From contig JAJZNV010000005.1 of assembly GCA_021852265.1 (NCBI GenBank), forward strand, positions 8,402 through 72,401: 64,000 nucleotides of DNA, written 5' to 3'. Numbering within the stretch: the first letter of the stretch is position 1; the number at the start of each line of letters is the position of its first letter. The DNA comes from Nanobdellota archaeon (GTDB lineage: Archaea > Nanobdellota > Nanobdellia > Parvarchaeales > Parvarchaeaceae). Position numbers and translations under genes: made by a program. A model generated the notes under the pieces. It had not been told where the DNA came from, ran no database searches, and was given only the letters and a program-made list of their open reading frames with translations. This document shows positions 30,734-50,707 of this stretch, one piece after another.

Positions 30734-30829
30734 GGATTCGTAGCTTAACGGTGAAGCGCTGCTCTTATATGAGCGTGCTTTAACATTTAGGATAAGCAGA
30801 GATCGAGGGTTCGACTCCCTCCGAATCCA
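30734..30829 (+). tRNA. tRNA, probable Ile (anticodon UAU), with about 24-nt intron at 37/38
   Basis: Acceptor GGATTCG/CGAATCC, D stem GCTT/AAGC, anticodon stem CTGCT/AGCAG, loop CTTATA + intron (30770-30793) + A, T arm GAGGG-TTCGACT-CCCTC. Hand-folded only. Confidence 0.6.
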
Positions 30830-37058: not shown

Positions 37059-37147
37059 GGGCCCGTCGTCTAGTGGATAGGATCGATGGCTTCGAATGCC
37101 ACTGATGGAGTGACCATCAGGCCGGGGTTCAAATCCCTGCGGGCCCT
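37059..37147 (+). tRNA. tRNA, probable Arg (anticodon UCG), with about 17-nt intron; integration target of the casposon
   Basis: Acceptor GGGCCCG/CGGGCCC, anticodon stem GATGG/CCATC, loop CTTCGA + intron + A, T arm CGGGG-TTCAAAT-CCCTG. The last 4 nt lie inside the left target-site duplication copy. Confidence 0.7.
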
Positions 37148-37157
37148 ATTCTGATTG
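37144..37157. repeat. Target-site duplication, left copy (ccctattctgattg)
   Basis: The same 14-mer abuts the outer end of each TIR in direct orientation (second copy at 50694-50707). Confidence 0.85.
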
Positions 37158-37380
37158 GGGGTATAGTATATCTCTTCCTTAATTTCACTCCTGCCCCAGT
37201 ATATATACAAAAGTATATACTTTCAATAATTCATGCCCAAATCATTTAAAATCAATATCTAATTTGTATAGGTTTCATTTAGGAGTATTCTAAGAGTAAA
37301 GTAGGGGTCATCTCGGATTCATCTGCGAGAAAACTCACTAATTAGTGATTCGTGAAAAAGGGGAAAAGTTCGAGAACTCG
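37158..37380. repeat. Left terminal inverted repeat (223 bp)
   Basis: Checked 10-mer by 10-mer: exact reverse complement of 50471-50693. Confidence 0.95.
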
Positions 37381-37553
37381 GAACAGTTTAAATAACTAAT
37401 TAGTGATGTTTGAGTAGGGTAACTAGGGATAGAGTCGAGTTACTATCAGTTAGCTAATATAATAAAAGTTTTTTAAGTTTGAAGGCCTGATTAAGAGTTG
37501 TAAAATTTACTTAAAAAGTAATCTTTATATAGATAAAATTTAACTATGTTTCA

Positions 37554-38696
37554 ATGGACCTTATATTAGAAGGGTTATTTATATTTTTTGTGATTGTTAC
37601 GACTCCGTTTACTCTTTTTCAGTTAGTACTTATTGTACGTAATAGGAAAGTTCTAAATAAAAAAATACCCCCTCCTCAATCTGGCAGGCGTATACTAGCT
37701 GTAATTGCGACTCTTGGTAAAGCAGATGATGTAGTGTTTCAAATCGTAAAACAACTCAAATCATATAATTTTAAGAATTTATACATATACATATTAGTTG
37801 AGTACGATAATAAGACTGATTATGGCGTAAAATCTATTGTAGTTCCAAAGGACTATAAAACAGATCATCATTCTAAATCCAAACATAGAGCTTTACATTA
37901 TTTTTCAGAATGGCTTAAAAAAGAAGGATATGGCAAGGAAACCTATGTAGTGCATTTAGACGATGATTCTGTAGTTTCTAAAAAATATTTAGAGTATGTG
38001 ATGGGAATGACGGCCGAGGCCGGACAGGGGGCCATAAGACTTAGGACGTATGGACACCATCTTTTTTCTACTTTAGCCGATTTTGGTAGAGTTGTAGATT
38101 GCGATACTTACTGCGCATTTTTTAATTCGAGAAGTACTCCTTTTGGAGTGCATGGGGAAGGTTTGGTAATAAGAGCCGATGTAGAAGAAGAGATTGGTTG
38201 GGATTATCAACCTACAGTAGCCGAAGATTTTATAATGGGCCAAAATATTTACTCCAAAGGGTATAAGTTTGATTTTATTCCAGGAGGTATCTACATAGCA
38301 CCACCTACAAACACAAGAGACTTTTATAATCAAAGAAGACGTTGGCACCACCACTTTTTTGAGTCGATTCACCTAGGTTACAAATTACATAAAAGTGCTA
38401 CTGCTTGGTTTGCATATCAGTATTCAATGGGTTGGGCCATGGCATTGGGGCTAGGTATCTGGATTTATGTTCTTATAGCCAGACCTAGTATCTATCCTAT
38501 ATTATTCTATATAACCACTTTTAATTTAATAGTGTCTTTTGGATTGTACCAATACGCTGCATATTACATAAAAAAATTAAAATACCATCTACTTATGTTA
38601 TTACTTCAAATCCCAGTCACCGTATATTACTCATTAACATTTTTTTACTACCTCCTTAAAAAACCTAAGAGCGATATATACATAAAAAAAGTGTAA
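37554..38696 (+). CDS. Family 2 glycosyltransferase, membrane-embedded processive type (D,D,D,QxxRW)
   Basis: 380 aa. N-terminal TM helix, VVHLDDDSVV (DxD), QRRRWHHH (Q-x-x-R-W) and C-terminal TM helices. Casposon cargo. Confidence 0.7.
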   Translation: MDLILEGLFIFFVIVTTPFTLFQLVLIVRNRKVLNKKIPPPQSGRRILAVIATLGKADDVVFQIVKQLKSYNFKNLYIYILVEYDNKTDYGVKSIVVPKDYKTDHHSKSKHRALHYFSEWLKKEGYGKETYVVHLDDDSVVSKKYLEYVMGMTAEAGQGAIRLRTYGHHLFSTLADFGRVVDCDTYCAFFNSRSTPFGVHGEGLVIRADVEEEIGWDYQPTVAEDFIMGQNIYSKGYKFDFIPGGIYIAPPTNTRDFYNQRRRWHHHFFESIHLGYKLHKSATAWFAYQYSMGWAMALGLGIWIYVLIARPSIYPILFYITTFNLIVSFGLYQYAAYYIKKLKYHLLMLLLQIPVTVYYSLTFFYYLLKKPKSDIYIKKV

Positions 38697-38727
38697 AAGT
38701 TATTAATTAAAGCAGTTTATAAATTTA

Positions 38728-39411
38728 ATGTCAACAACTATATTTGGGAAGATATCTTTTCTTAATGGTCAAATCGCTAAATTATCAATGGGTTCTAAGA
38801 TATTGAATTATGGCGGAGGTAGCATAGACATCAAAAACGGTATTGTGACAATAATTTTCAATGATACGAAGGAAAAAACGTTATTTGAGTTATACCACAT
38901 ATCTTATGATTTAATTGATAATCTCCTTTTAGGCAATGAACTTAACCTAGACAGAGCCATTATATTCTTCCCGGAAAGTGTAGAAAGAGACGGAATACAG
39001 GAACAGTTTGATTGGGATGTTTTCGAAATAAAGGCCGAACAAGTTGATATAAGAGAATTTGGAATTTTCCTTGCGGGAGATCCTCTATTTAGACAAGCTG
39101 TAAGAAACTTCCATATTGGTTTACTTGATACACGTGATGCACCGGCTCATTTTTATAGGGCCATTGAAGTTTTAAGGATAAGAGTTGCAACTCCAAATCC
39201 TAATAATAGAAGCGCCGAATGGGAGGAATTTAAGTCTAAAATATGTTTAAACAAAGAAGAGAAAGCTGACTTAATTTGTATGAAGGAAATAGCAAAAAAT
39301 TATCGACATGGTGTTAGGCTGGAAAATATAGATCATTTAAAATGGGTAGAGTTTACTAAAAAATTAATAATAAAAACTTATAATTACCTAAAAAAACAGC
39401 AGGCTTTTTGA
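38728..39411 (+). CDS. Hypothetical protein (casposon)
   Basis: 227-aa ORF with no family recognised. Confidence 0.4.
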   Translation: MSTTIFGKISFLNGQIAKLSMGSKILNYGGGSIDIKNGIVTIIFNDTKEKTLFELYHISYDLIDNLLLGNELNLDRAIIFFPESVERDGIQEQFDWDVFEIKAEQVDIREFGIFLAGDPLFRQAVRNFHIGLLDTRDAPAHFYRAIEVLRIRVATPNPNNRSAEWEEFKSKICLNKEEKADLICMKEIAKNYRHGVRLENIDHLKWVEFTKKLIIKTYNYLKKQQAF

Positions 39412-39419
39412 ATTTCTTT

Positions 39420-39674
39420 TCACTTCTCCCCCCACTGTTTTAATATCCTATCTGCTTCAAGTTCTTTTTCATAAATCCAATTATCATTTATCTCTGATAT
39501 TAACCCGATTAATTTTGGCGATCTTTTGTAAGCCGTTTTAGTTGCAGCGTAAACTTCTAATATCTTAGTAAAAACTGCATCGGCGCTTCTGCTTTTACTA
39601 TCAAGCTTTATTTGCATTATTTTTCTCCAGTTCTCGTAAGACACTGTAATGTCTTTATAGCCATTTCTTCTCAT
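39420..39674 (-). CDS. Hypothetical small protein (casposon; possibly RHH-like)
   Basis: 84 aa. Last gene of the minus-strand polB operon. The beta-strand/helix pattern ITVSYENWRKIMQIKLD is only suggestive. Confidence 0.35.
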   Translation of the reverse strand: MRRNGYKDITVSYENWRKIMQIKLDSKSRSADAVFTKILEVYAATKTAYKRSPKLIGLISEINDNWIYEKELEADRILKQWGEK

Positions 39675-39703
39675 ATTTTATGTTTTAAAGCCTAGTATTT
39701 TAA

Positions 39704-40138
39704 TCAGATTTCACCTTTTTTTATCAAGTCAGTCAATGCCCTTCCCTGCGTGTCAAGGAAATCCCTTCTCTGTTTCGCATCTGGATCTATCTTAGCCGAA
39801 GTTTTGTCTAAAACGTCCGTGTTTCTGAAGCGCAGTACGACATCGTCATCAAGCTTCTTCATAGAGGTATAATGCAGGTTTCTAAGTTTATCTGCGCAGT
39901 AGATACAGAACTTGCTGAATGGCACCATACTCTTATAGTTTTTTGATTTTATTGCGTCAGTCTTTGATAGTAGGTCTATTGCTTCATAGTAATCGGAGCT
40001 AGTTACTACAAAGTCCAGTGGGCGTCTTTTTTCCAGGTATACAATCACAAGCGCTTTGTACCATATCCTGTCTTTCGATTCAATCATATACTCATTCAAT
40101 GAACCGAATAATACGTTTTCAGGATCTTTATCTCTCAT
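39704..40138 (-). CDS. Hypothetical protein (casposon)
   Basis: 144 aa. Overlaps the polB 3' end by 11 nt, which suggests translational coupling. Confidence 0.4.
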   Translation of the reverse strand: MRDKDPENVLFGSLNEYMIESKDRIWYKALVIVYLEKRRPLDFVVTSSDYYEAIDLLSKTDAIKSKNYKSMVPFSKFCIYCADKLRNLHYTSMKKLDDDVVLRFRNTDVLDKTSAKIDPDAKQRRDFLDTQGRALTDLIKKGEI

Positions 40139-42836
40139 ATACCGCCTTGCTTTTTTGGCATCCCATCTTTGGATTTAAATCCATGTATGCCTGTATCCGT
40201 TTTATTATCTTACCCATCCTTCTGAATGGTTCTTGCTGTTTCCTTATCTGATAATACCTTCTTTTAGATATCCCTAGTCTGATTCTGTCGGTTTCTGTCA
40301 GCTCTCTCGCTTTTTCGGCCAGGTCCTCATATACTGTATAACTTCCATCTAAAACACCTACTACCTCGGACTCTTCCAGTTCATTGCTTTCTTTTCCTAT
40401 GTATTTTGTACTAGATGAGCAGAATATTACATGCTTTCTGCTTAGTTCTCCTATGTCTCCTTTAAACTTGCTCTCTGGGTGCTTCCAGTAATCCCATACC
40501 ACCTCTTCTATGGGCGTCCAGTATAATTGTGTATCCTGCTCGTATAATTTCCCACTCTTATAATCTATGAAAGGTTCATAGACTAAACTATTAAATGACT
40601 CTTTACTGCTGTTGACAAATGAATGAACTGGTATTATTGGCTCGTTAGTTTCAGGATCACGCCTACAGGATCTGCCCACCAAAACGAAATTGAACGGCCT
40701 TATAATCCCGAGCTTGGAAAATCTCTTTATTATTGACGGCTTTGTTACATTCAGCTCTGAAATCGCAAACTTACCTGAGTATTTTCGCACTATTTCATTA
40801 GGCCCTGTATTATTCAGTTCAATTTTCAGGATATCCTCCCAAATCTCTTTATTTTGAATGCCTTCTAGGTTTCCTAGCCCATGGGACGATGATGTGCGTA
40901 TAATTGGATTACCGTTTATGGTATCAAATAGAGCGTATCTCTTTGCTGATATACCATAGAAATTGACGTTTTCCAATGGTCTTCCATCCTCATCTTTCTC
41001 TACTTTAAACATGTCTGTTTCATGTTCATATGGGTTCAAAGGCTTGAAAAAGCTTTGTATTAGGTCTTTATGCTGCGGAGAGATCATTACGCTGTCTGTG
41101 TCGCAGTAAGCAAGGTACCCGCCGTTTCTTTTCAGCAGCGCTTCCGCTATACCCAAAACCAATCTAGAGGCTGATGTAAGCATAGTAGCTATGAGTGGAT
41201 TAAATTTAGAACCTGGTTTTTCAAGTCTATTCACCTTGCATATAAATTTCTTTAGGCCGTATACATCAACATTCTTATATTTTTCCAGTGGTTCAATGTC
41301 CAACTCTACGAAGATCCCGTAAGACATGGCATTAACTATGGTTTTTATCGCTTTCTGTTTAATAGTCAGCTGCCTTATCTCATTTTTATCCTTGGATATG
41401 CCTGCTTTGCGCTTTATCTCTAGTCTTTCATCTATTAGCTTCCGGACTATATTCTCTTCGGGACTTATAGTTATATCATCCATTATGTTTATCTCTCTAA
41501 GGCTATTTTGAACACCCTCACGCAGAAACTTTATAGCCGTTTTTATCTTTGGGACTTTGCCCGATAAGAATTTATCAGCTACCAGATCGGCAAGACTGTA
41601 CCATAAAGCCGTGCCGTCTGAAGAACTGACTACATTAAGCCCTATCGTATATGCATTCCTCCCATCATAATTGGATCTTATAGGCAATATATCGGAATCT
41701 GGGACTATCTCGCATATCACTGGAAGGCGTTTCCAAGTGCCTTTATCCATGAAATCTTCAATTTTTACAATTTCTAAGAAGGACTGAGTCTCGGCTGTCG
41801 CATCTTCATACCTTATCTTTTCAGCTTTTAGGAATGAGTCCATGTCTGTCAGAGTATAAACAGAAGGGTACATCGAAGTAAAGTCAAGATATGTTACTTT
41901 TGATGGCAATTTTCGGATTTTTACTTCTGTCCTACCCCCATAATATGTAGTCATAATATAACCCAATAGCTCTTTTGGAAAGTCTTTATTCTGCTCCATA
42001 AAGGGTTTTATACCGTAATTTTTAAGGTATGCTTTGGCCAGAGATGCCGGTGAGAGCAGCCTTTCGGGCGGTATATCAAGCATAAAGGTTGAGTATCTTT
42101 CCGTTAGCTTCTTATATAATTCGTAGGTAACATCCACATCGTTAATGTTATAAGCTATGTAATCTGGTGTTATTCTGCCGTGTCCATTTGGATGCGTCTT
42201 CCTGGAAATGCAGTCAAAATCCTCAGCGGCTGACTCAAGCGAGTAGCTTTTGCTTGTCAATGCAAATGCAAATGTCCTTAGATCCAGAAATCTTCCTCTG
42301 TAATATTCATATTCCTCATCTCTTTTGTCTCGGGGGGCAGTTATAGAATAAAATGACCTCTTTGAATCAAGGCTCTTTATATCTATCCTAGGCATTGTGG
42401 GATTTTTGGACAGGATAAAGGAGAACCCCCCTTTCAATGATTTTCTAGCTTCTCCGTATCTTATTGCGAGTCTGGATATGTCAAACGGCAAGTTAAACCC
42501 GACACAGAGGGCCTTTGCATTGTAAACGTAAGGCAGGAATATCCTATCAACAAAATCCGATCTGTTCATTAAAGTGAGATCATTTTCTAATGCGTATTGC
42601 TCTATTGTTTTTACATCATCTGTTTTTAAATCATCCGCGTAGAATAAGTATACAGCAAGGAGTTTGTCAGAAATGAATATCTTGCATGTTCCAAACAGCA
42701 GTTTCTGTTCTTTGTCTGTAGTAGTTTCCGTATCAAAAACAAGGATTATGTCGGTACTATAACAAAATCGCTTATCTGGTTTATCTACCAATTCAATAGG
42801 GGCATACGCCCTTAGCACTACAGTTTCATTAACCAT
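40128..42836 (-). CDS. polB: Family B DNA polymerase (casposon-encoded)
   Basis: 902 aa. ExoI LVFDTET, ExoII GFNLPFD, ExoIII YNINDVDVTYELY, Pol A YLDFTSMYPS, Pol B KTIVNAMSYGIF, Pol C YCDTDSV, KxY SAKRYALF. Confidence 0.9.
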   Translation of the reverse strand: MVNETVVLRAYAPIELVDKPDKRFCYSTDIILVFDTETTTDKEQKLLFGTCKIFISDKLLAVYLFYADDLKTDDVKTIEQYALENDLTLMNRSDFVDRIFLPYVYNAKALCVGFNLPFDISRLAIRYGEARKSLKGGFSFILSKNPTMPRIDIKSLDSKRSFYSITAPRDKRDEEYEYYRGRFLDLRTFAFALTSKSYSLESAAEDFDCISRKTHPNGHGRITPDYIAYNINDVDVTYELYKKLTERYSTFMLDIPPERLLSPASLAKAYLKNYGIKPFMEQNKDFPKELLGYIMTTYYGGRTEVKIRKLPSKVTYLDFTSMYPSVYTLTDMDSFLKAEKIRYEDATAETQSFLEIVKIEDFMDKGTWKRLPVICEIVPDSDILPIRSNYDGRNAYTIGLNVVSSSDGTALWYSLADLVADKFLSGKVPKIKTAIKFLREGVQNSLREINIMDDITISPEENIVRKLIDERLEIKRKAGISKDKNEIRQLTIKQKAIKTIVNAMSYGIFVELDIEPLEKYKNVDVYGLKKFICKVNRLEKPGSKFNPLIATMLTSASRLVLGIAEALLKRNGGYLAYCDTDSVMISPQHKDLIQSFFKPLNPYEHETDMFKVEKDEDGRPLENVNFYGISAKRYALFDTINGNPIIRTSSSHGLGNLEGIQNKEIWEDILKIELNNTGPNEIVRKYSGKFAISELNVTKPSIIKRFSKLGIIRPFNFVLVGRSCRRDPETNEPIIPVHSFVNSSKESFNSLVYEPFIDYKSGKLYEQDTQLYWTPIEEVVWDYWKHPESKFKGDIGELSRKHVIFCSSSTKYIGKESNELEESEVVGVLDGSYTVYEDLAEKARELTETDRIRLGISKRRYYQIRKQQEPFRRMGKIIKRIQAYMDLNPKMGCQKSKAVYER

Positions 42837-43302
42837 GCTTGTCTGCCCCCAGTAAAGTTGATATCGTGTAACATAAAGAGTTTGACAAGAATAATGCAGA
42901 AGCTTCGTTTAGTTTTACGTACCGAAGCATTAATATGTCGGATATTCCCTGTAGTAAAAAGGCATTTCTAACGTTTTCTGTTTGATCGGCAAGCTCCCAT
43001 CTTTTGTCCCATACCATCTGCCTTTTTGATAGTTCCTGGTGGCATGATTTACACACGGTTAAGACTATATTCGGGTTATGCTTCCATCCGGACGGATGGT
43101 GCAGTTCTGAATCATTATCTTTTATCAGTTTGTCGCATACCTTACAGATTGGGCTACGGAGAAATTCCTCATTATTGGATATTATAAAATTAATAAGTTT
43201 AATTAAATCAGACAGCTCTTTAGATAGGTTTTTAATATAATCCTCTTCAGCTTTCTTTAATTCAGAATTCAATTTTACCAGTAAACTTTCAGTCGGTGGC
43301 AT
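42829..43302 (-). CDS. HNH-type nuclease-like protein (casposon)
   Basis: 157 aa. CKVCDKLI...ELHHPSGWKHNPNIVLTVCKSCHQELS is an HNH-like CxxC...HH...N...CxxCH arrangement. Overlaps the polB start by 8 nt. Confidence 0.6.
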   Translation of the reverse strand: MPPTESLLVKLNSELKKAEEDYIKNLSKELSDLIKLINFIISNNEEFLRSPICKVCDKLIKDNDSELHHPSGWKHNPNIVLTVCKSCHQELSKRQMVWDKRWELADQTENVRNAFLLQGISDILMLRYVKLNEASALFLSNSLCYTISTLLGADKHG

Positions 43303-43966
43303 AGATGGAATAAAATTCAGGCTCCTCCCTCCTCTCCACTATTTCGAGAATCTTTTTCAGATCAGTTTCAAATGGATAAAACTTTAGATTTGAATCGAAA
43401 ACTCCACGGTTCTTAAATGCTTCTAACCTTTCTGGTTCGTTTTTGAAAATGAACCAGCGAACCGCATCAAGATATTGTCCAAGCAAAGATGCCTCTCTAG
43501 AATTATTTAGTTCAATTATAAGATCATTAGAATTTGAATATATGTGCATTATTCTTGGTATCTCGTCACTTGGATTAACAATCCATTTATTGCCCACTTT
43601 ACGGAAAGCGCCTGTGGCTCTTACAACATCAGAAAACTTAATGCCGTTGCTTTTAGCTATTTGAACAGGATCTCTATCTGGAAAGCGCCTAGATTCACTT
43701 ACGACTTTAAGGGCCATTTCTCTTTGTATTTTTTGCTTTGATGTCAACTTATTCCAAGGTCGCTGGTATAACGGCTTTCTTTTAGGATACCTTAAAGGAT
43801 TAGAGCCGTGTCCTCTTAGTTCCCTTAAAGTCGCATTCGGATATTTTGCATGTGCTTTTATAATGCGCTGAACGTATGGGCTGTTTGGATTCTTTTGCGC
43901 CGCTAACCACTCTTCAAACGTCCGAAACCTCCCAGAGAGCCCCATGATTAATATCTGGTCTCCCAT
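43289..43966 (-). CDS. Hypothetical protein (casposon, first gene of polB operon)
   Basis: 225 aa. Overlaps the downstream HNH gene by 14 nt. No family recognised. Confidence 0.4.
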   Translation of the reverse strand: MGDQILIMGLSGRFRTFEEWLAAQKNPNSPYVQRIIKAHAKYPNATLRELRGHGSNPLRYPKRKPLYQRPWNKLTSKQKIQREMALKVVSESRRFPDRDPVQIAKSNGIKFSDVVRATGAFRKVGNKWIVNPSDEIPRIMHIYSNSNDLIIELNNSREASLLGQYLDAVRWFIFKNEPERLEAFKNRGVFDSNLKFYPFETDLKKILEIVERREEPEFYSIYATD

Positions 43967-43975
43967 GAATAAATA

Positions 43976-44004
43976 CGTTATAGCGTACTTAGTTCGTTAT
44001 AGCG
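43976..44004. promoter_or_regulatory. Two copies of CGTTATAGCG (43976-43985, 43995-44004) in the 66-bp divergent promoter region; candidate operator
   Basis: Direct 10-mers 19 bp apart, between the divergent operons. A TATA-like tatttata follows at about 44011-44018. Confidence 0.3.
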
Positions 44005-44032
44005 AAAAGTATTTATAGGTGGGATAACTTAA

Positions 44033-45097
44033 GTGTATATGGTAAATAATAATAAGACACTTAAAAAGATAGAAAATAAATATGAGATTTTGGGGTACTT
44101 ATTTTCCAAGTCTAATCCAGTAACTTCGGCCGATTTGATTAAAGAAATACGCGGTATGAAGAGAACTGCATTTTTTAGTAATTTAAGAGATTTGGTAGAT
44201 AAAGGATATGTCTCTAAAACATATATAAATGGGGGTCCGGTCTATACACTGACACCTAAAGGAATAGATTACTACAAAAAAGATGTTTGGAGGGTCATAT
44301 CAGACCTTATGAGTTTCCAAGAGTATGACTATGGGGGGGATAATGATTCAGGCTTGCATACAATGTTTCAAGGTGTTTATTTTAATATTTTTCAATCTAG
44401 TGGAAAATCAGCACTTTTAGATTTAAAGAAAAGTAGTGATGAGATAAAAGATTCAATAATAAACCGTATATCTAATCAGATAAAAATGGCTTTAAACGCA
44501 AAAACTCTGCCTAAAGTGAATCCTGGAGCTAAAGTGATATTCGCTTTAGATATAGACTATGAACAAATGTACCAAAGGATAAATACACTAAGAATATTTA
44601 TAGATGATCTAAATGAGGATGTTTCTTATATCTTTAAAGATACAAGGCTTGGTTTCTTTCATGAGGAGGATAAAAGGCGATTTAATCTTGAGATGTTATT
44701 TAAGATCTTATCCGAATTGGAAAATTTTCTTGGTAAGAGCATCGAAAAGAAGATAAATAAGCTTCTTGATTACATATCTGATAATGAAGAGGAGTTCTTG
44801 GAATTTATAAACGGCGCTTTAGATACGGAGCTGTTAAACTGTGTAATAGAAGATGTCCGAAAAAATAAGCATCCCTTGGATGATCCGGAGATAAAAAATA
44901 AGCTTGTTGAAGTAGAGCTTACTCCTGGTAAATTTGGTGTTCGCATCTTAACTGGAACTTATCTAGATGTCGCGCTTTATCTTTTACATAAAAATAAAGA
45001 ATTAGTAGCTAAAATAGAAAAGTTTACAAAAGAAAATCGTGATAAAGAAGATGATATTGTGAAAAATATCTTAAAAAACGGGGTAAGAAAAGTATGA
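44033..45097 (+). CDS. Winged-helix DNA-binding protein (casposon)
   Basis: 354 aa. N-terminal wHTH ILGYLFSKSNPVTSADLIKEIRGMKRTAFFSNLRDLVDKGYVSKTYINGGPVYTLTPKG. ATG at 44039 is an alternative start. ATGA overlap with cas1. Confidence 0.55.
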   Translation: MYMVNNNKTLKKIENKYEILGYLFSKSNPVTSADLIKEIRGMKRTAFFSNLRDLVDKGYVSKTYINGGPVYTLTPKGIDYYKKDVWRVISDLMSFQEYDYGGDNDSGLHTMFQGVYFNIFQSSGKSALLDLKKSSDEIKDSIINRISNQIKMALNAKTLPKVNPGAKVIFALDIDYEQMYQRINTLRIFIDDLNEDVSYIFKDTRLGFFHEEDKRRFNLEMLFKILSELENFLGKSIEKKINKLLDYISDNEEEFLEFINGALDTELLNCVIEDVRKNKHPLDDPEIKNKLVEVELTPGKFGVRILTGTYLDVALYLLHKNKELVAKIEKFTKENRDKEDDIVKNILKNGVRKV

Positions 45098-46272
45098 AAC
45101 CGCTATTAATCTCTGGTTTTGGGAGCTTCTTAAGCGTTGACAGGCGCAAACTAATAGTTTACAATACTTTTACTAAAGAAAAGTTTGAATTTTACCCCCA
45201 TCAGATAGAATATGATACAATAATAATAGACGGCCACTCTGGCGCTGTATCCTTTGATGCAATGAGATGGATAGCCAAGCATGATATAGCTTTAACCCTG
45301 CTGAATTGGAATGGGAATGTTCTTAGCACTCTGCAGCCTAAAGAGCCAGTTTCTGGAAAGCTTAAAATTGCACAGTACAAATCTTATCTTAATAAAGAAA
45401 GGCGTATAAACCTAGCTTCAGAGATAATAAAAGCCAAAATAAACAAATCGTATGAAATACTGGAAAAACTCTCCGTATATTACAAAGATCTGAAAATAAA
45501 TGATGTAAAAGCAAGCTTCGATAAAGAAGCCAGTCAAACTAAATTAGAGAGTATTAACTATATAATGATGTACGAAGGAAGGGTAGCCGATTTATACTGG
45601 AAAAACATGGCTAAAATCTTTAATTATTTAGCTCCGGAATTCAATTTCAAGTCTAGAAAAGGGAAATCGTATTCCTGGAACATGAATGCATCCGATGAAA
45701 TAAATGCCATGCTAAACTACGGATATGCCATTTTGGAAACACTGGTTAGAAAATATGTAAATGCCATCGGATTGGATCAAGATATCGGATTCTTGCACGA
45801 ACTAGCTAATTCGAGGGCTAGCCTAATTTACGACTTGCAGGAATTGTACAGATGGGTAATAGATCTTAGTGTTATCCAGGTTTTAGAGGATAAGAAGCTT
45901 AAGAAGAGCGACTTCATAGTCACTGAGAACTATAATATAAGACTTAGGGAAAGTGCTGCAAAGATGCTAATAAATAAGATAAAAGTTAACTTCAATAGCA
46001 CGTCTGTTTACAAGGGCAAAAATAGGGCCTTGGAATTCACCTTACTGGACAACATAAGAAAGCTGGCCGATCATGTATCCGATAGATCAAATGTTCTTGA
46101 GTTTTACATTCCGGAGGTAAAGATTGACAGAAACGATGACATAGCGGTAAGAGATAAAATATTGAGCATTACGCCTGCTGAAAGGAAAAAGCTTAAGATA
46201 AACAAAAGCACATTATGGTACAGGCAGAAAGCTATAAAGAATAGAAAAAGGATTAAACTATACAAACAATGA
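45094..46272 (+). CDS. cas1: Cas1-family integrase (casposase) with C-terminal HTH
   Basis: 392 aa. Cas1 motifs MMYEGRVADLYW (Glu), NAMLNYGYAILE, GFLHE (His) and LIYDLQELYRW (Asp). Basic C-terminal HTH-like tail KINKSTLWYRQKAIKNRKR. Confidence 0.85.
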   Translation: MKPLLISGFGSFLSVDRRKLIVYNTFTKEKFEFYPHQIEYDTIIIDGHSGAVSFDAMRWIAKHDIALTLLNWNGNVLSTLQPKEPVSGKLKIAQYKSYLNKERRINLASEIIKAKINKSYEILEKLSVYYKDLKINDVKASFDKEASQTKLESINYIMMYEGRVADLYWKNMAKIFNYLAPEFNFKSRKGKSYSWNMNASDEINAMLNYGYAILETLVRKYVNAIGLDQDIGFLHELANSRASLIYDLQELYRWVIDLSVIQVLEDKKLKKSDFIVTENYNIRLRESAAKMLINKIKVNFNSTSVYKGKNRALEFTLLDNIRKLADHVSDRSNVLEFYIPEVKIDRNDDIAVRDKILSITPAERKKLKINKSTLWYRQKAIKNRKRIKLYKQ

Positions 46273-46287
46273 TAATTTAAACTATTT

Positions 46288-46704
46288 CTAAAATAATCTT
46301 GGAGGCCTACGTTCTTTTAAACCTGTAATTGGGTTAATCCAATACTCTCCTTTTTCTTTTTTATGTGCCCTTTTTTGTCGTATTTCTTTTACTCTATCAT
46401 CGTTAGTTTTTTGGGCATGACAAGTGGCACATAGTGCTTGTATATTTGATATGTCAGTTTCCCCTCCCTTTGAATGGGGTTTAATATGGTCGTATTGGGT
46501 AGCAGAGGGTATTAATTGTTTACCACATATCGCACATTTGCCATGCTGCCTTTCCCATACCTTGTTTTTTTCCGATTTACTTATTTGTCTTTTATGGTCC
46601 TTTTTATTAGATTTTGGACTTTGCCAGATAGAATTTAAGCCTAGGGAATTGTTCTTTTTTATTTTATTACCAAAAATATCATAATTACTGTCTAAAATAC
46701 CCAT
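46288..46704 (-). CDS. HNH endonuclease (casposon)
   Basis: 138 aa. HGKCAICGKQL...YDHIKPHSKGGETDISNIQALCATCHAQK is a canonical HNH motif. Confidence 0.8.
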   Translation of the reverse strand: MGILDSNYDIFGNKIKKNNSLGLNSIWQSPKSNKKDHKRQISKSEKNKVWERQHGKCAICGKQLIPSATQYDHIKPHSKGGETDISNIQALCATCHAQKTNDDRVKEIRQKRAHKKEKGEYWINPITGLKERRPPRLF

Positions 46705-46778
46705 TATCGATGTAGTATTTCTTTATTTAAATAAGTTTATGCCATTTCGGTTTCTCTAAAACTATGTTGTAACTATTT

Positions 46779-47414
46779 TTACTTATACAATAAAACATGT
46801 TTAGGAAAGTGGAGTAGAAGATAAAATGTATTAGAAATTGAATTCCTATAATCATCTTTTATATATGAAGTTATGCAGAATGGTTGCAAAGAAGTATCAA
46901 TTTTCATTCGTGGGTAAGTTTTGGTTTCTTTTTTGTTACAGTGTAGCTGAGCTATAAAGATTTTCTTCTTAATTTTCCCCCTAAGATTTTTGTATCTATA
47001 CAAACCATCACTTAAGGCTATACCATATTCACAACCATGACTAAATATAAAAACACTCTCCATGTTTTTATTTATAATAGCTCTTTCGAAATCTCGCCCT
47101 TTTTCAACAAAAATTATTTTGTAATTCAATTTTAGGTGTTTTAACCTATATAGAAGTAAGAAAATAGAATTACTGTAAATATGTATATTCTCTAAAGAAC
47201 TGCGCATCCCAGATATTTTACGTTTTCCAATTATAATTCCTACAAATTTTGTAGTTTTGTTGTATTTCTTTTTTTTGTTAGTATTTTTAGATACTCTTAA
47301 TAATATTGGCATGAAAATAATAGAGATTGCTATAAAAATAAAACTGATTACTAGCGGTATTACAAATGCTATTACAAGTATTATTGTTATTAATACAATT
47401 AATTGAAATGCCAT
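46779..47414 (-). CDS. Hypothetical membrane-anchored protein (casposon)
   Basis: 211 aa with an N-terminal hydrophobic helix pair followed by a Lys-rich linker. No family recognised. Confidence 0.35.
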   Translation of the reverse strand: MAFQLIVLITIILVIAFVIPLVISFIFIAISIIFMPILLRVSKNTNKKKKYNKTTKFVGIIIGKRKISGMRSSLENIHIYSNSIFLLLYRLKHLKLNYKIIFVEKGRDFERAIINKNMESVFIFSHGCEYGIALSDGLYRYKNLRGKIKKKIFIAQLHCNKKETKTYPRMKIDTSLQPFCITSYIKDDYRNSISNTFYLLLHFPKHVLLYK

Positions 47415-47595
47415 TTATATAATGATACAAAAACCAAATAAATATTTATAAAAGATTTTTAAGTCCGTAAGATTAGCGCCAAATGCTGATAAATAATAAA
47501 ATTTTATTATTCCCACCCTATAAAAATGGGCTAACTTGTGTTCCCCCTAATCAAAAAATAACAAATTATAATTTATTTATGGCAATTAAAAAGAT

Positions 47596-48986
47596 TTAAG
47601 AAACGCTGCCAAAGCTCACGGAAGGCATAACCCCCTCTGGAGCCAAATTTGCTAGAGCAATATAAAATATGATCATTTTTCCTGAATTAAGTTGAAAAAA
47701 TACACCTGTTTTAGCTGGAGTCGACATTTTTACACCACCAGTAATATAATTAACAAAATTTATTGAGGAGTATACATTTCTATTTAAGAAATACATTGAG
47801 AGTGGATACGTCTGATTCGCTACGGTACTTGGTATACTATAACCATAATAATCATTTGAAAGATTATATGTTTGAACACCATAATTACCATTACCGCCTG
47901 CGCCATTCAACCAATAAGTTGGCGCTGTATTTGGTCCACCAAATCCATCTCTTGCATATGAAGCATTAGAAAAAGATTGGAATAAAGTTATGTATAGATA
48001 ATCCGAAGGAGAGAAATAACCATAACTTCCGCCACTACTTGAGGATAAATGTAAACCATCATCTGCAGAACTTACGGGAGGCAACGGATTATAAGCACTA
48101 CTCCAACCATTTAATGAGGCGGAATTTTCAAAATTATTATAATAATAAAATAAATTGAACCCATCATCGTATTCTGCATAAGTGGAAGATAATTGAGGGG
48201 CTTCTCCATCGTTTACTGTATTGAAAAGATTAGTTGATGTAGGAGCGAAGCCCATGTAGATTGTCTGCTTTGAGCCTGCGGGATTGATGAGGTCAACTTG
48301 ACCCACCAGATTGCATGGGCTGATGTATAGTTTTCAAGCCAGGAATCTAGTATCTGGCCTGTTGAAGAGAAGAATTCGACGTTCTGGCCAAAAGGAGACG
48401 AAGAGATCTTTACCCAGCCTGGACTGGAGCTAGTGACGTTAATCATCTGCTGAAAAGGGGAAGGAGTGCCTTGACTTTGTGTGTTTGTTATATTTAAGGG
48501 TTCATATGAAGTAGCTGAAGAAGGGGGAGAAGCTGCTGTTCCTGAGACAGTTCCTGTTGAAGTGTATGGTCCCGGAAATATCTGTCCTGGCTCCAGGTAG
48601 GATATGACAGCAGAAACTGAATACCTTGCTCCTGGGCTGCATAATGATGATGAGGGTACCGTTACAGTCTGTATGCTATTGGGCTGGATTAGGATGTTTG
48701 GACTGTAGGTTGTCTTGCCTGATGAGGAGGTCAGGTTGATTTGGGTTATGTTTATAGGGTAACCTGTTGAGTCTCCCATTGATATTGTGAAGCTTGTTCC
48801 TCCTAGGCAGACTGCATTTATTGTTCCTAAATTGGAGAAGCCTGTTATTGTTGTTGACAGTGATGAAGAAGGTGAAAAGATACCTAGACTATATAAGACT
48901 GCTGCGACGATGACAATGACTAGTATGGCCCAGCCGTACGTCATCATATACTCCAATGCCGATTGGGATTTTCGTGGGAGACTCAT
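47596..48986 (-). pseudogene. Type IV pilin-like (class III signal peptide) surface protein with DUF2341-like domain, interrupted by a frameshift
   Basis: ORFs 48213-48986 and 47596-48306 overlap by 94 nt in different frames. Joined, they read ...AIWWVKLTSSIP / AGSKQTIYMGFAP..., a continuous DUF2341-like motif. The N-terminal 170 aa are paralogous to 49220-50404. The total length of 1391 nt is not divisible by 3. Confidence 0.65.
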
Positions 48987-49219
48987 ATAAGAGAAATAAG
49001 GGGAGTAAATAAATAGTTTTCATCGGGGCTACAGTAAACCACTTGATTAGGGCAGATTTTGCTCGAATCCAGTATTTATTACCTCGAAGGAGATTTAAAT
49101 TATGTTGTGTTCTATTAAAGTTATAGATTAAGAGAGTCATCGCCTAATAAATTCTGTTCTGCTTCAGGCGCTTAGACTTTATGTGCTTGTTTCTCTGCTA
49201 TTTGTGGTCAAGATATATA

Positions 49220-50404
49220 TTAGGAAAGCCCAGTATCCTGGTAATTACTTGTAAACAGAACATCTGAAACAATTCCATTTTTATTATTTCCGCTGTAATC
49301 CACAGCTGAACCATTCAAGGGCCAAAATACATCTATATTCATCCCACTAAGCGGTTTGCCTGTTAATCCGCTCGTGTACAATTGTTTTATTTGTGCAGGC
49401 GAAAGAGAACTATTATAGTATTGAAAGTTACTAACAAAACCATCTATTGTAGATGCTATACTTGGAGAGGATGAACTAAATATATTTGTTGGGTGTCCAT
49501 TTGGATAACCTAAATAAAAACATACGCTGCCAGGCGGCCAGCTTTCTGCCCCAGTATTAGATGAAACTAAGTTTCCATTTAAATATAAAGAATCATTATC
49601 AGTGGCGTTGTTATAAGACAGAACTGTATAGTACCATTCTCCTTGGTGTACGCTTGGACTTACTAGGTCAGGAAGATTCCATACCGATCCCCAGATAACT
49701 CCTGAGTTTAGGCCTAGGGGCGACATAGAGCCTGTGCAAAGTAATTGAATGAATGGCTGCACGGAATTCACATTAGATATTGAATTCATATAAACCCACA
49801 TCGAAAATGTTTTTGGTGAATTCGTTTCCATAGCTAAATTACTTATTTCTATTGTGCTTATCGGCGAACTACCCCCAGCGGTTGAATTTTGACCAAAGAA
49901 TTCAGCTACATATTTCGGTAAAATTAAAGAAGAAGACGTTCCAGAAACCGTTCCACTCGAGATATATGGTCCCGGGAATGTCTGACTTGGTTCAGTGTAG
50001 TTTACTGTCACAGCAAGAGAGTAGCGTGAGCCTGCTGCCGGACAAATGTTCGGAACTGAGAATATGTAACTCGAAGTAGGCTGGATTATTGGATTTGGGT
50101 CCACGGTTGAATTTGGCTTGAATGTGGAGATCTGACCAGTGGATGATTTTGCTGTGACACTAGTAATATTTATTGGGTAACCTGTGGAGTCTCCTAAGCT
50201 TATTCTTAATATTCCGTTGGCTGTGCACTCTCCCGTAACACTGCCCAGGTTGGAGAAACCGGTTACTGTTGAAGACAATGAGGATGCTGGAGAAAATATT
50301 CCCAAACTGTATAAAACCCCTGCTACTATCACAATGACTAGTATGGCCCAGCCATAAGTCATCATATACTCCAGTGCTGATTGGGATCTTCGTGGTAGAC
50401 TCAT
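49220..50404 (-). CDS. Type IV pilin-like (class III signal peptide) surface protein with C-terminal LamG/ConA-like lectin domain
   Basis: 394 aa. N-terminus MSLPRRSQSALEYMMTYGWAILVIVIVAGVL (prepilin-type signal plus hydrophobic helix). C-terminal FSMWVYMN...GEWYYTVLSYNNATDNDSLYLNGNLV is typical of Laminin-G-3-like domains. Confidence 0.7.
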   Translation of the reverse strand: MSLPRRSQSALEYMMTYGWAILVIVIVAGVLYSLGIFSPASSLSSTVTGFSNLGSVTGECTANGILRISLGDSTGYPINITSVTAKSSTGQISTFKPNSTVDPNPIIQPTSSYIFSVPNICPAAGSRYSLAVTVNYTEPSQTFPGPYISSGTVSGTSSSLILPKYVAEFFGQNSTAGGSSPISTIEISNLAMETNSPKTFSMWVYMNSISNVNSVQPFIQLLCTGSMSPLGLNSGVIWGSVWNLPDLVSPSVHQGEWYYTVLSYNNATDNDSLYLNGNLVSSNTGAESWPPGSVCFYLGYPNGHPTNIFSSSSPSIASTIDGFVSNFQYYNSSLSPAQIKQLYTSGLTGKPLSGMNIDVFWPLNGSAVDYSGNNKNGIVSDVLFTSNYQDTGLS

Positions 50405-50470
50405 ATGATAGAGAAGGCAAGAGGAAATAAATAGTTTTCATTGGACTGCGGAAAGTCAAATTTTAAACCT

Positions 50471-50693
50471 CGAGTTCTCGAACTTTTCCCCTTTTTCACG
50501 AATCACTAATTAGTGAGTTTTCTCGCAGATGAATCCGAGATGACCCCTACTTTACTCTTAGAATACTCCTAAATGAAACCTATACAAATTAGATATTGAT
50601 TTTAAATGATTTGGGCATGAATTATTGAAAGTATATACTTTTGTATATATACTGGGGCAGGAGTGAAATTAAGGAAGAGATATACTATACCCC
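50471..50693. repeat. Right terminal inverted repeat (223 bp)
   Basis: Exact reverse complement of 37158-37380. Confidence 0.95.
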
Positions 50694-50707
50694 CCCTATT
50701 CTGATTG
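50694..50707. repeat. Target-site duplication, right copy (ccctattctgattg)
   Basis: Identical to 37144-37157 and directly abuts the right TIR. Confidence 0.85.

What the first reader, a model, noticed from the sequence alone, without database searches (positions are those of the whole stretch)
45094..46272. Solo Cas1 with C-terminal HTH and no CRISPR context: candidate casposase
The ORF carries the Cas1 hallmark segments EG..A..YW, N..LNYGY..LE, GFLHE and YDL.E.YR, which contain the Glu/His/Asp metal-binding residues. It ends in a basic HTH-like tail (KINKSTLWYRQKAIKNRKR), the extra domain described for casposases. It is translationally coupled (ATGA overlap) to an upstream 354-aa wHTH protein. 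I saw no cas2, cas4 or repeat array anywhere in the window.
Basis: partly seen in the sequence, partly recalled or inferred. Interest (0 to 1): 0.7.

Follow-up and report, generated by a model that had tools for sequence, protein, structure and literature searches.

The report
Mobile family-2 casposon in Parvarchaeota
The gene encodes the Cas1-type integrase of a complete 13.5-kb self-replicating transposon (a family-2 casposon) inserted beside a tRNA-Ser gene of a tiny DPANN archaeon; near-identical populations lack it, so it moved recently, but it is a known kind of element in a new host.

Summary
ORF 45094-46272 is a full-length Cas1 (Pfam E 1e-58). Its best solved relative is the Methanosarcina mazei casposase 6OPM (E 2e-75, C-terminal tail included). 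The catalytic residues E161/H235/E250 are conserved, and a three-helix C-terminal HTH is predicted.

It lies inside a 13,536-bp element (37158-50693) with perfect 223-nt terminal inverted repeats that start GGGGTATAG. A 14-bp target-site duplication (CCCTATTCTGATTG) flanks it. The first 4 nt of that duplication are the last 4 nt of tRNA-Ser(CGA), the same geometry as in M. mazei casposons.

The element also carries an intact family-B polymerase (motif C YCDTDS, with a Cas1-like C-terminal HTH), an HNH nuclease and a translationally coupled winged-helix protein. The Cas1 is 58%/57% identical to AciBoo-C1/MetArv-C1 (family 2) and 28% to family 1.

Eight contigs from the same Ca. Parvarchaeota population (flanks 99.7-100% identical in the seven compared) carry the exact empty site. 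Another carries a different element with a 93%-identical repeat, and another a ~471-bp deletion derivative.

I found no cas2, cas4 or CRISPR array in the 64 kb. Verdict: a new member of a known kind, in a host lineage not named in the casposon papers I read.

The parts
37059..37147 (+). Host tRNA-Ser(CGA) gene; integration target. Its last 4 nt (CCCT) are the first 4 nt of the TSD.
   Evidence: ARAGORN and Rfam RF00005 at 46.7 bits; sequence.
37144..37157 (.). [quoted passage not shown]
   Evidence: The empty sites in L024-L030 carry exactly one copy.
37158..37380 (+). Left terminal inverted repeat, 223 nt, starting GGGGTATAGTATATC. It contains the palindrome CACTAATTAGTG at 37336-37347.
   Evidence: The terminal motif matches the family-2 TIR starts listed in the PMC4046053 supplement.
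37554..38696 (+). Cargo: family-2 glycosyltransferase (380 aa).
   Evidence: Pfam PF13632, E 7.6e-24. Absent from the related elements L005 and L006.
38728..39411 (+). Cargo: 227-aa protein of unknown function.
   Evidence: The precomputed Pfam annotation gives DUF8168_C, but my own hmmscan found no hit.
39420..39674 (-). Conserved small core protein (84 aa), function unknown.
   Evidence: 66% identity in L005 and 44% in L006, in the same position.
39704..40138 (-). Conserved core protein (144 aa), function unknown.
   Evidence: 66% identity in L005 and 51% in L006. No Pfam or NCBIfam hit.
40128..42836 (-). Family-B DNA polymerase (902 aa) with intact exonuclease and polymerase motifs and a C-terminal HTH resembling that of the Cas1.
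   Evidence: Pfam PF03175 E 1.3e-10 and PF00136 E 4.5e-6. Motifs FDTET34, NLPFD115, YNINDVD229, DFTSMYPS318, NAMSYG502 and CDTDS578. hhalign of the Cas1 C-terminal profile against the PolB C-terminal profile gives probability 89.6%, E 1.9e-6. 45% identity to the PolB of the Nitrosotalea casposon L009.
42829..43302 (-). Conserved core protein (157 aa) with an invariant CxxC...ELHHxxG...CxxCH motif. It looks like an HNH-type zinc finger, but this is unconfirmed.
   Evidence: Alignment A3. The PDB profile hits to McrA and the IscB HNH region are only sub-threshold, E 0.07-0.2.
43289..43966 (-). Conserved core protein (225 aa), function unknown. It is a candidate for the second family-2 'HTH' protein, but this is not shown.
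   Evidence: Conserved in L005, L006, L009, L010 and L035, always next to PolB. No PDB, Pfam or NCBIfam hit.
44033..45097 (+). 354-aa protein with an N-terminal winged helix and a helical C-terminal domain. Its gene overlaps cas1 by 4 nt (ATGA).
   Evidence: AF2 model with a wHTH at residues 6-83 (pLDDT 82-93) and a helical domain at 176-353. Foldseek matches to SSV1 F-93, HxlR, PadR and MarR wHTH proteins at E 3e-3 to 1e-2. The remote homologue P0145 also lies just upstream of a casposase gene and overlaps it by 4 nt.
45094..46272 (+). Casposase: a Cas1-family integrase with a C-terminal HTH (392 aa). This is the finding.
46288..46704 (-). HNH endonuclease (138 aa), a family-2 core gene.
   Evidence: Pfam PF01844, E 4.7e-14. 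Homologues in L006 and L012.
46779..47414 (-). Cargo: 211-aa predicted membrane protein, function unknown.
   Evidence: ORF. No family hit.
47596..48986 (-). Cargo: surface-protein gene split into two overlapping ORFs (257 aa and 236 aa). The N-terminus is paralogous to the next gene.
   Evidence: Direct repeat D1, 80% over 195 nt. A DUF2341 match is truncated at the end of the 257-aa ORF. The same split appears in L002 and L003.
49220..50404 (-). Cargo: 394-aa secreted or surface protein with a concanavalin/LamG-like domain and a hydrophobic N-terminus that looks like an archaeal class III signal peptide.
   Evidence: Pfam PF13385, E 8e-10. The signal-peptide reading is my own inference from the sequence MSLPRRSQSALEYMMTYGWAIL.
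50471..50693 (-). Right terminal inverted repeat, 223 nt, 100% complementary to the left one. The 3' end reads ...CTATACCCC.
50694..50707 (.). Right copy of the 14-bp TSD CCCTATTCTGATTG.

Best explanation
The ORF encodes the casposase of an intact family-2 casposon, 13,536 bp long (37158-50693), integrated in the chromosome of a Candidatus Parvarchaeota (DPANN) archaeon.

The likely mechanism is inferred from the experimentally studied A. boonei and M. mazei enzymes. The Cas1-HTH protein binds the element's ...CCCC-3'OH ends. It recognises the 3' part of a tRNA gene and joins the two ends to opposite strands 14 bp apart, starting 4 nt inside tRNA-Ser(CGA). Gap repair then produces the 14-bp duplication and leaves the tRNA gene intact. 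The element's own B-family polymerase is presumed to copy the element. The HNH nuclease, the coupled winged-helix protein and the other conserved small proteins are presumed accessory factors for end processing, targeting or regulation.

The remaining genes are cargo: a glycosyltransferase and surface proteins. The element was mobile recently in this population.

What is shown: the anatomy, the homology, the conserved catalytic residues and the empty/occupied polymorphism. What is inferred: enzymatic activity, the roles of the accessory proteins and the replication mode.
For: Casposase identity
- Pfam Cas1 E 1.3e-58.
- 6OPM casposase E 2.1e-75 over residues 1-386.
- AF2 model with pLDDT 86.5. 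Its top Foldseek hits are 6OPM chains (E 3.5e-31, TM 0.86-0.88), ahead of all CRISPR Cas1 structures.
- E161/H235/E250 align with the M. mazei active site E162/H232/E247 (PMC6977970). They are invariant or at least 90% conserved in 37 homologues.
- The C-terminal helices 350-357, 361-367 and 371-382 form an HTH.

Family placement
- 58% identity to AciBoo-C1, 57% to MetArv-C1 and 40% to MetMaz Go1, against 28% to family 1 and 25-27% to family 3. A neighbour-joining tree places it inside family 2 (reference sequences from the PMC4046053 supplement).

Element anatomy
- Perfect 223-nt TIRs and a 14-bp TSD.
- The terminus GGGGTATAG resembles the family-2 TIR starts.
- PolB has all catalytic motifs and a Cas1-like C-terminal HTH. 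An HNH nuclease is present.
- The core gene order is conserved in L005, L006, L009, L010 and L035.

Target geometry
- The TSD consists of the last 4 nt of the tRNA plus 10 nt, as in M. mazei.
- Three related elements place a GGGG[TA]ATAG terminus 9-10 nt after tRNA-Arg, tRNA-Val and tRNA-Gln.

Recent mobility
- L024-L030 and L034 carry the exact empty site with one TSD copy. The flanks of L024-L030 were compared and are 99.7-100% identical over about 10 kb on each side.
- Further alleles at the same site are seen in L031 and L032.

Host
- Identical flanking proteins are named Ca. Parvarchaeota in NCBI.
Against: - No biochemical activity was or could be tested.
- The right junction was seen only in the window. 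The independent assemblies confirm the left junction, the empty site and, in L032, the right-end sequence, but not the full right junction.
- The TSD length is formally ambiguous (12-14 bp) because of the G/C run at the ends. I chose 14 bp because the termini of L006, L009 and L012 have exactly four Gs.
- The reported HEAT-repeat domain of the family-2 HTH protein and a clear second HTH protein were not demonstrated.
- PolB was not compared directly with a reference family-2 PolB sequence.
- The tree is a small neighbour-joining tree without family-4 references and without support values.
- Short-read metagenome assemblies cannot fix the orientation of the segment between 223-nt inverted repeats.
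Confidence: 0.92

Rival explanations
1. It is an ordinary CRISPR adaptation Cas1 whose cas2 gene and array lie outside the 64-kb window.
For: Pfam and the public annotations call it 'CRISPR-associated protein Cas1'. Only 64 kb of the genome was seen.
Against: It is at most 25% identical to CRISPR Cas1 references and 58% identical to casposases. It has the family-2-specific C-terminal HTH. It lies between TIRs with a PolB and a TSD, and the whole block is absent from near-identical genomes. No cas2, cas4 or array is present in the window.
Confidence: 0.01
2. It is a casposon relic: structurally recognisable but no longer mobile, fixed or decaying at this site.
For: Many described casposons are inactive (PMC4779613). 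The related Methanocellaceae element L010 has a fragmented cas1. One cargo gene here is split into two ORFs. A deletion derivative exists at the same site.
Against: The TIRs are 100% identical over 223 nt. All core ORFs are intact, with conserved catalytic residues in Cas1 and PolB. The site is empty in contigs whose flanks are 99.99-100% identical (L026), which points to very recent insertion or excision. A second, different element occupies the same site.
Confidence: 0.05
3. It is a tRNA-integrating plasmid or provirus that moves through another recombinase, and the Cas1 gene is only cargo.
For: The insertion is at a tRNA 3' end with a short direct repeat, as for tyrosine-integrase elements. 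M. mazei tRNA-Leu is also used by such elements.
Against: No tyrosine or serine recombinase or other transposase domain was found in any ORF of the element. The ends are long inverted repeats with the family-2 terminal motif, and the direct repeat is 14 bp, which is the casposase stagger.
Confidence: 0.01
4. It founds a new casposon family, distinct from family 2 and specific to DPANN archaea.
For: The host lineage is not among those named for family 2 in the papers read. The wHTH partner protein is very divergent, with only 12 relatives at E<=1e-3 among 1.84 billion representatives. HEAT repeats were not detected.
Against: The Cas1 nests among AciBoo-C1, MetArv-C1 and the thaumarchaeal, Micrarchaeota and Marsarchaeota sequences, not on a separate deep branch. 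It has the family-2 features tested here: Cas1-HTH, a PolB with a similar HTH, HNH, the tRNA target and the 14-bp TSD.
Confidence: 0.04

Closest known systems
AciBoo-C1, family-2 casposon of Aciduliprofundum boonei T469
   Same: The Cas1 is 58% identical over the published trimmed alignment and shares the SYSWNM and DLSVIQ.LEDKKLKKS.FIVTENY segments. Both have a C-terminal HTH, a PolB with motif C CDTDS (PMC7544198), an HNH nuclease, integration at a tRNA 3' end and G-rich TIR termini.
   Different: The target is tRNA-Pro with a 15-16-bp repeat rather than tRNA-Ser with 14 bp. The TIRs are 40 nt rather than 223 nt, and the element is 9.1 kb rather than 13.5 kb. The host is a euryarchaeon and the cargo differs.
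M. mazei family-2 casposons (e.g. MetMaz1FA1A3-C2) and the casposase structure 6OPM
   Same: The TSD geometry is identical: 14 bp made of the last 4 bp of a tRNA gene plus 10 bp. The 3'-terminal C run at the element ends is similar (TATATCCC against TATACCCC). The active site matches (E162/H232/E247 against E161/H235/E250), and the HTH is required for activity in M. mazei. Both show an empty/occupied polymorphism among strains.
   Different: The identity is only about 39-40%. The target-contacting residues R191/R192, which read the CGCA motif, are S194/W195 here, and the TSD starts CCCT. The TIRs are 31-59 nt there.
MetArv-C1 (Methanocella arvoryzae) and NitNCS1-C1 (Ca. Nitrosotalea okcheonensis), family 2
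   Same: Cas1 identity to MetArv-C1 is 57%; that element has a 14-bp TSD at tRNA-Arg and TIRs starting GGGGATAATG. The Nitrosotalea casposon L009 shares the PolB (45%), p157, p225 and Cas1 (50%) and ends 9 nt from a tRNA-Val gene.
   Different: The hosts differ (Methanocellales and Thaumarchaeota) and so does the cargo. The wHTH partner is not detectably conserved at the sequence level in L009 or L010.
CRISPR Cas1-Cas2 adaptation integrase
   Same: The Cas1 fold and catalytic triad are shared (Foldseek E 1e-20 to 1e-15 against 4N06, 4WJ0, 8D3P and 7CR6). Both carry out staggered integration next to a defined sequence.
   Different: There is no Cas2 and no array. There is an extra C-terminal HTH. 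The protein is encoded inside a TIR-flanked element with its own polymerase. Sequence identity is at most 25%.

Membership tests
Casposon (superfamily) | Cas1-family integrase with an intact active site that is not part of a CRISPR-cas locus | tested here: met
   Pfam E 1.3e-58. E161/H235/E250 are conserved. No cas2, cas4 or array in the 64 kb.
Casposon (superfamily) | Family-B DNA polymerase encoded in the same element | tested here: met
   The 902-aa PolB at 40128-42836 has all exonuclease and polymerase motifs.
Casposon (superfamily) | Terminal inverted repeats flanked by a target-site duplication | tested here: met
   223-nt perfect TIRs and a 14-bp TSD. Removing the element and one TSD copy reproduces the empty site in L024 exactly.
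Casposon (superfamily) | Integrase activity of the Cas1 on the element's ends | not testable with these tools
   This needs protein purification and an integration assay.
Family-2 casposons | Cas1 carries a C-terminal HTH domain (PMC4046053) | tested here: met
   The alignment to 6OPM runs to residue 386. AF2 predicts helices at 350-382. L374/W375/Y376 are invariant.
Family-2 casposons | Cas1 groups with family-2 Cas1 in phylogeny | tested here: met
   58%/57%/40% identity to AciBoo, MetArv and MetMaz against 28% to family 1 and 25-27% to family 3; the neighbour-joining tree agrees. Family-4 references were not available.
Family-2 casposons | Distinct (not protein-primed) PolB of the CDTDS group with a C-terminal HTH similar to that of Cas1 | tested here: inconclusive
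   Motif C is YCDTDS. There are weak hits to both PF03175 and PF00136, as described for the CDTDS cluster. hhalign of the Cas1 tail against the PolB tail gives probability 89.6%. The PolB of Nitrosotalea casposon L009 is 45% identical. No direct comparison with a reference AciBoo or M. mazei PolB was possible.
Family-2 casposons | HNH endonuclease gene | tested here: met
   PF01844, E 4.7e-14, at 46288-46704.
Family-2 casposons | [quoted passage not shown] | tested here: inconclusive
   One winged-helix protein with a helical C-terminal domain was found and is conserved next to cas1. HEAT repeats were not detected by Pfam. The second HTH protein was not identified; p225 has no detectable fold match.
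Family-2 casposons | Integration into the 3' region of a tRNA gene or into an intergenic site, with a TSD of about 14-15 bp | tested here: met
   tRNA-Ser(CGA) with a 14-bp TSD that overlaps the last 4 nt of the gene. Three relatives show the same spacing.
CRISPR-Cas adaptation module | cas2 gene adjacent to cas1 and a CRISPR array in the locus | tested here: not met
   The neighbours are a wHTH protein and an HNH nuclease. No array was found.

The most novel reading that the evidence does not exclude
This is a currently active casposon lineage in host-dependent DPANN archaea. One tRNA-Ser site shows four natural allelic states in the sampled populations: empty, full-length, a second related element, and a ~471-bp MITE-like deletion derivative that keeps both ends. 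Relatives sit at a fixed 9-10-nt distance from four different tRNA genes. That would imply targeting by a ruler set on the conserved tRNA T-arm/acceptor region rather than by a TSD motif. Together these would give a natural system for studying casposon turnover, non-autonomous derivatives and target choice. The cell-surface and glycosylation cargo might also affect symbiont-host contact.
Probability: 0.3. Interest if true: 0.55.

Novelty: new member of a known kind. Interest (0 to 1): 0.38.

Why it matters
Casposons are the presumed ancestors of the CRISPR adaptation machinery. Only two casposases have been studied biochemically, and in vivo movement has been shown only for M. mazei.

This element extends family 2 to a DPANN (Parvarchaeota) host. 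It also offers an unusually clean natural record of movement: an exact empty site, an intact copy, a second element and a mini-derivative, all at one tRNA site. It adds a new tRNA target (Ser-CGA) with the same 4+10 geometry as in M. mazei. Its target-contact loop differs from the M. mazei one (SW instead of RR), which is useful for comparative work on target recognition.

It does not change the current picture of what casposons are.

Tried and rejected
- BLASTP of the Cas1 tail against the PolB tail found nothing, and a Smith-Waterman score was not significant against shuffles (p about 0.07). Only the profile-profile comparison supported a shared HTH.
- I considered that the SWNM loop of the AciBoo/MetArv/this subgroup co-varies with TSDs starting CCC, as opposed to RR with CGCA. 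The extended set does not support a conserved 5' TSD motif: the sites in L006, L009 and L012 begin GGCA, CCAT-like and CTAC. I dropped this in favour of a fixed distance from the tRNA end.
- The genome-contig scan did not return the window's own genome, only relatives at 78% identity or less. The host was identified instead through exact-sequence cluster names.
- NCBIfam gave no hits for ten casposon proteins. PDB profile searches for p225 and p157 gave nothing significant.
- No TIRs were detected for L005. The 48-nt inverted repeat in L006 lies inside genes and is probably not the terminus. The far ends of the L006, L009 and L012 elements lie outside the fetched DNA, so their TSDs could not be checked.
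- I looked for an independent right junction through the 512-aa flanking gene. Only empty-site contexts were returned.
- The supplements of PMC4779613, which hold the family-4 references, are not held. PMC5665730 is not held.
- A 12-bp TSD with 5-G termini fits the window equally well. I rejected it because three relatives have exactly four terminal Gs.
Full report
**1. The observation**

ORF 45094-46272 (+) encodes 392 aa. The quoted motifs are all present: YEGRVADLYW (E161), NAMLNYGYAILE, GFLHE (H235) and YDLQELYR (D247/E250). The basic tail KINKSTLWYRQKAIKNRKR is also there. The start codon overlaps the stop of the upstream 354-aa ORF (44033-45097) in an ATGA.

**2. What the protein is**

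The best solved relative by sequence is 6OPM, the Methanosarcina mazei casposase, at E 2.1e-75. The alignment covers residues 1-386, so it includes the C-terminal tail. The next hit is a CRISPR Cas1 (4N06) at E 3e-30.

An AlphaFold2 model built on 37 homologues has mean pLDDT 86.5 and pTM 0.86. It shows the N-terminal beta domain, the helical catalytic domain and three short C-terminal helices (350-357, 361-367, 371-382), which form an HTH. Foldseek ranks the 6OPM chains first (E 3.5e-31, TM 0.86-0.88), ahead of all CRISPR Cas1 structures.

The M. mazei active site is E162/H232/E247 (PMC6977970). These residues align with E161/H235/E250 here. E161 and E250 are invariant and H235 is at least 90% conserved among the 37 homologues.

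The only low-confidence loop in the model (190-199) corresponds to the M. mazei loop that carries R191/R192, which contact the CGCA target motif. Here those positions are S194/W195.

**3. The element around it**

The gene lies inside a 13,536-bp element, 37158-50693.
- **Terminal inverted repeats (TIRs):** 223 nt, 100% complementary (37158-37380 and 50471-50693), starting GGGGTATAGTATATC. This start resembles those listed for family-2 casposons, such as GGGGTAGTAG, GGGTAATAG, GGGGATAATG, GGGATATAGG and GGGTTATAGG (PMC4046053 supplement).
- **Target-site duplication (TSD):** the element is flanked by CCCTATTCTGATTG at 37144-37157 and 50694-50707.
- **Target:** the first 4 nt of the left copy are the last 4 nt of tRNA-Ser(CGA), 37059-37147. 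This is the geometry described for M. mazei, where a 14-bp TSD consists of the last 4 bp of tRNA-Leu plus 10 bp (PMC6977970).
- **TSD length:** the G/C run allows 12-14 bp. Three related elements have exactly four terminal Gs, which favours 14 bp.
- **Copy number:** the window holds no other copy of the terminus.

**4. Gene content**

The genes form two divergent modules.

The leftward module runs p225, p157, PolB, p144, p84.
- PolB is 902 aa. Pfam gives PF03175 at E 1.3e-10 and PF00136 at E 4.5e-6.
- Its catalytic motifs are intact: ExoI FDTET, ExoII NLPFD, ExoIII YNINDVD, A DFTSMYPS, B NAMSYG and C YCDTDS.
- The motif C and the weak similarity to both the main and the protein-primed PolB groups match the "PolB_CDTDS" cluster, which contains the A. 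boonei casposon polymerase (PMC7544198).

The rightward module runs wHTH-354, Cas1, and then HNH on the opposite strand (PF01844, E 4.7e-14).

A profile of the Cas1 C-termini aligns with a profile of the PolB C-termini at hhalign probability 89.6%, E 1.9e-6, over 34 columns. This matches the reported family-2 trait that PolB carries an HTH similar to that of Cas1 (PMC4046053).

The 354-aa protein models as a winged helix at residues 6-83 (pLDDT 82-93), then a poorly predicted linker, then a confident helical domain at 176-353. Foldseek matches only the N-terminal domain, to wHTH proteins (SSV1 F-93, HxlR, PadR, MarR; E 3e-3 to 1e-2).

This protein family evolves fast. Only 12 relatives reach E<=1e-3 among 1.84 billion representatives. 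One distant relative, P0145 (28% identity), is again immediately upstream of a casposase gene that starts MNPLLLSGFG. The two genes overlap by 4 nt and are divergent from a YCDTDS PolB.

p157 has an invariant CxxC...ELHHxxG...CxxCH motif. It looks HNH-like, but the PDB hits are not significant. p225 is conserved from DPANN to Nitrosotalea and Methanocellaceae elements and has no detectable fold relative.

The cargo consists of:
- a GT2 glycosyltransferase (E 7.6e-24);
- a 227-aa unknown protein;
- a 211-aa membrane protein;
- two paralogous surface proteins, one with a LamG-like domain (E 8e-10) and one split into two ORFs.

**5. Family assignment**

I took reference Cas1 sequences from the alignment published with Krupovic et al. 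2014 and compared them with the window protein.

| Reference | Family | Identity |
|---|---|---|
| AciBoo-C1 | 2 | 57.9% |
| MetArv-C1 | 2 | 56.7% |
| MetMaz Go1 | 2 | 40.4% |
| MetLum | 2 | 39.2% |
| Nitrosopumilus | 1 | 27.9% |
| Bacterial | 3 | 25-27% |
| CRISPR Cas1 | - | 18-25% |

A neighbour-joining tree places it inside family 2, in the AciBoo/MetArv subclade, together with Micrarchaeota, Marsarchaeota and thaumarchaeal sequences. Family-4 references were not available.

The family-2 traits listed in PMC4046053 are mostly met: Cas1-HTH, PolB with a similar HTH, HNH, and a tRNA or intergenic target. The "two HTH proteins, one with HEAT repeats" criterion is only partly met.

**6. Host and mobility**

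The flanking genes are housekeeping genes: aminoacyl-tRNA synthetases, thermosome, PCNA, ribosomal proteins and enolase. Several tRNAs contain introns. Identical proteins are named Candidatus Parvarchaeota in NCBI. GC content is 35.8% in the element and 38.5% in the host flanks.

I looked up the gene just upstream of the tRNA in other assemblies. Seven contigs (L024-L030) have flanks 99.7-100% identical to the window, and in them the tRNA is followed directly by ...CCCTATTCTGATTGAAGAGGG. That is one TSD copy and no element. The sequence reconstructed by deleting the element and one TSD copy is found verbatim in L024. L034 shows the same empty context from the other side.

Two further contigs show other states at the same site.
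- **L031** has the TSD, then a TIR 93% identical over 223-226 nt, then unrelated internal sequence. This is a different related element.
- **L032** has the TSD and nt 1-84 of the left TIR. These are joined through a 6-nt microhomology (CCCAAA) to window position 50301 onwards. The contig then runs through the right TIR to its end. This is a ~471-bp internal-deletion derivative that keeps both ends.

The casposon itself recurs as stand-alone 10-13-kb contigs that break in the TIRs in several metagenomes.

Relatives with 80% and 67% identical casposases keep the core but carry different cargo, mostly defence-like. Examples are ResIII plus an N6/N4 methyltransferase, SLFN/AlbA_2 and HepT/MNT.

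Three relatives end with GGGG[TA]ATAG 9-10 nt after the 3' end of tRNA-Arg (L006), tRNA-Val (L009, Nitrosotalea) and tRNA-Gln (L012, a Nanoarchaeota-labelled MAG). The target is therefore set by position relative to a tRNA 3' end, not by a conserved TSD motif.

**7. No CRISPR context**

TRF, Rfam and a k-mer chain scan found no array. No Cas2 or Cas4 domain occurs among the annotated genes of the window.

**8. Mechanism**

The mechanism is inferred from the A. boonei and M. mazei enzymes (PMC5137440, PMC6614799, PMC6977970). The casposase, probably as a tetramer, uses the 3'-OH of the terminal C at each end to attack the two target strands 14 bp apart next to the tRNA gene. It needs its HTH domain for this. 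Repair of the gaps gives the TSD and leaves the tRNA intact. Replication by the element's PolB, and the roles of HNH, wHTH-354, p157 and p225, are presumed and not shown.

**9. Comparison and novelty**

This is a family-2 casposon. The casposon papers I could read name Euryarchaeota and one Nitrosotalea as hosts of family 2. My literature searches found no description of a casposon in Parvarchaeota or other DPANN archaea. Public databases nevertheless hold many unannotated relatives from Micrarchaeota, Marsarchaeota and Nanoarchaeota MAGs.

It is therefore a new member of a known kind. Its added value is a clean natural record of recent mobility, a new tRNA target and a possible MITE-like derivative. 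I rate interest as moderate to low (0.38).

**10. Caveats**

- No activity data exist.
- The right junction was seen only in the window.
- The assemblies are short-read metagenomes.
- The tree is small, neighbour-joining and without support values.
- The HEAT domain and the second HTH protein were not shown.
- The class III signal-peptide reading of the cargo proteins rests on my own inspection of the sequence.

Noticed in passing
L032:10777-11240 (GCA_027370475.1 DAICKD010000001.1), corresponding to window 37158-37241 joined to 50301-50686: At the same tRNA-Ser site there is a ~471-bp internal-deletion derivative of this casposon. Left TIR nt 1-84 are fused at a 6-nt microhomology (CCCAAA) to the last ~390 nt of the element, which include the whole right TIR. 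This could be a MITE-like non-autonomous casposon. The contig ends 7 nt before the terminus.
   Followed up: partly
L031:10777-11343 (ERZ27237541 k141_1341046): The same TSD and site are occupied by a different element. Its TIR is 93% identical over 223-226 nt, and it is followed by 340 nt with no match to the window element or to L001-L007. This suggests independent use of the site by a related casposon.
   Followed up: partly
window 47596-48986 (-) and 49220-50404 (-): These are two paralogous cargo genes. Their N-termini (MSLPR.SQSALEYMMTYGWAILVIVIV) are 80% identical at the DNA level and look like archaeal class III (pilin-type) signal peptides. One gene has a LamG-like domain. The other is split into overlapping 257-aa and 236-aa ORFs, with a DUF2341 match cut at the break. 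The same split occurs in L002 and L003, so it is either a shared frameshift or programmed.
   Followed up: partly
window 37336-37347, 37394-37405, 50504-50515: The perfect palindrome CACTAATTAGTG sits at the inner edge of each TIR, and a third, 1-mismatch copy lies 58 nt further inside the left end. There are 4 matches in the window against 0.19 expected. It is conserved in the diverged TIR of L031. It may be a binding site for one of the HTH proteins.
   Followed up: partly
window 42829-43302 (-): The conserved 157-aa core protein has an invariant CxxC...ELHHxxG...CxxCH motif across five elements. It looks like a second, divergent HNH-type nuclease or zinc finger. The database hits are not significant.
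   Followed up: partly
L005:11184-15013 and L006:11235-16041: Related casposons (casposase 80% and 67% identical) keep the core but swap the cargo for defence-like genes: a ResIII helicase plus an N6/N4 methyltransferase, SLFN/AlbA_2 proteins and a HepT/nucleotidyltransferase pair. For L006 the element's limits are not defined, so the last pair may lie outside it.
   Followed up: no
L006:14485-14569, L009:9233-9317, L012:14606-14687: Three related elements end with GGGG[TA]ATAG 9-10 nt downstream of tRNA-Arg(TCT), tRNA-Val(TAC) and tRNA-Gln(CTG). The spacing from the tRNA 3' end is conserved across different tRNA genes and host phyla.
   Followed up: partly
window 18147-18232 and 30734-30829: Rfam found two tRNA genes that ARAGORN did not. 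They are 86 and 96 nt long, presumably intron-containing archaeal tRNAs.
   Followed up: no
window 21150-21260: A two-copy direct repeat of at least 25 nt, 73 nt apart, lies at the end of the ORF 20477-21211 and in the spacer after it. It is not a CRISPR array, since there are only two copies.
   Followed up: no
L010:10001-11172: The Methanocellaceae relative has 65-nt TIRs (86% complementary), but its cas1 is broken into fragments (the largest ORF is 160 aa). It is a decaying casposon, in contrast to the intact one in the window.
   Followed up: no
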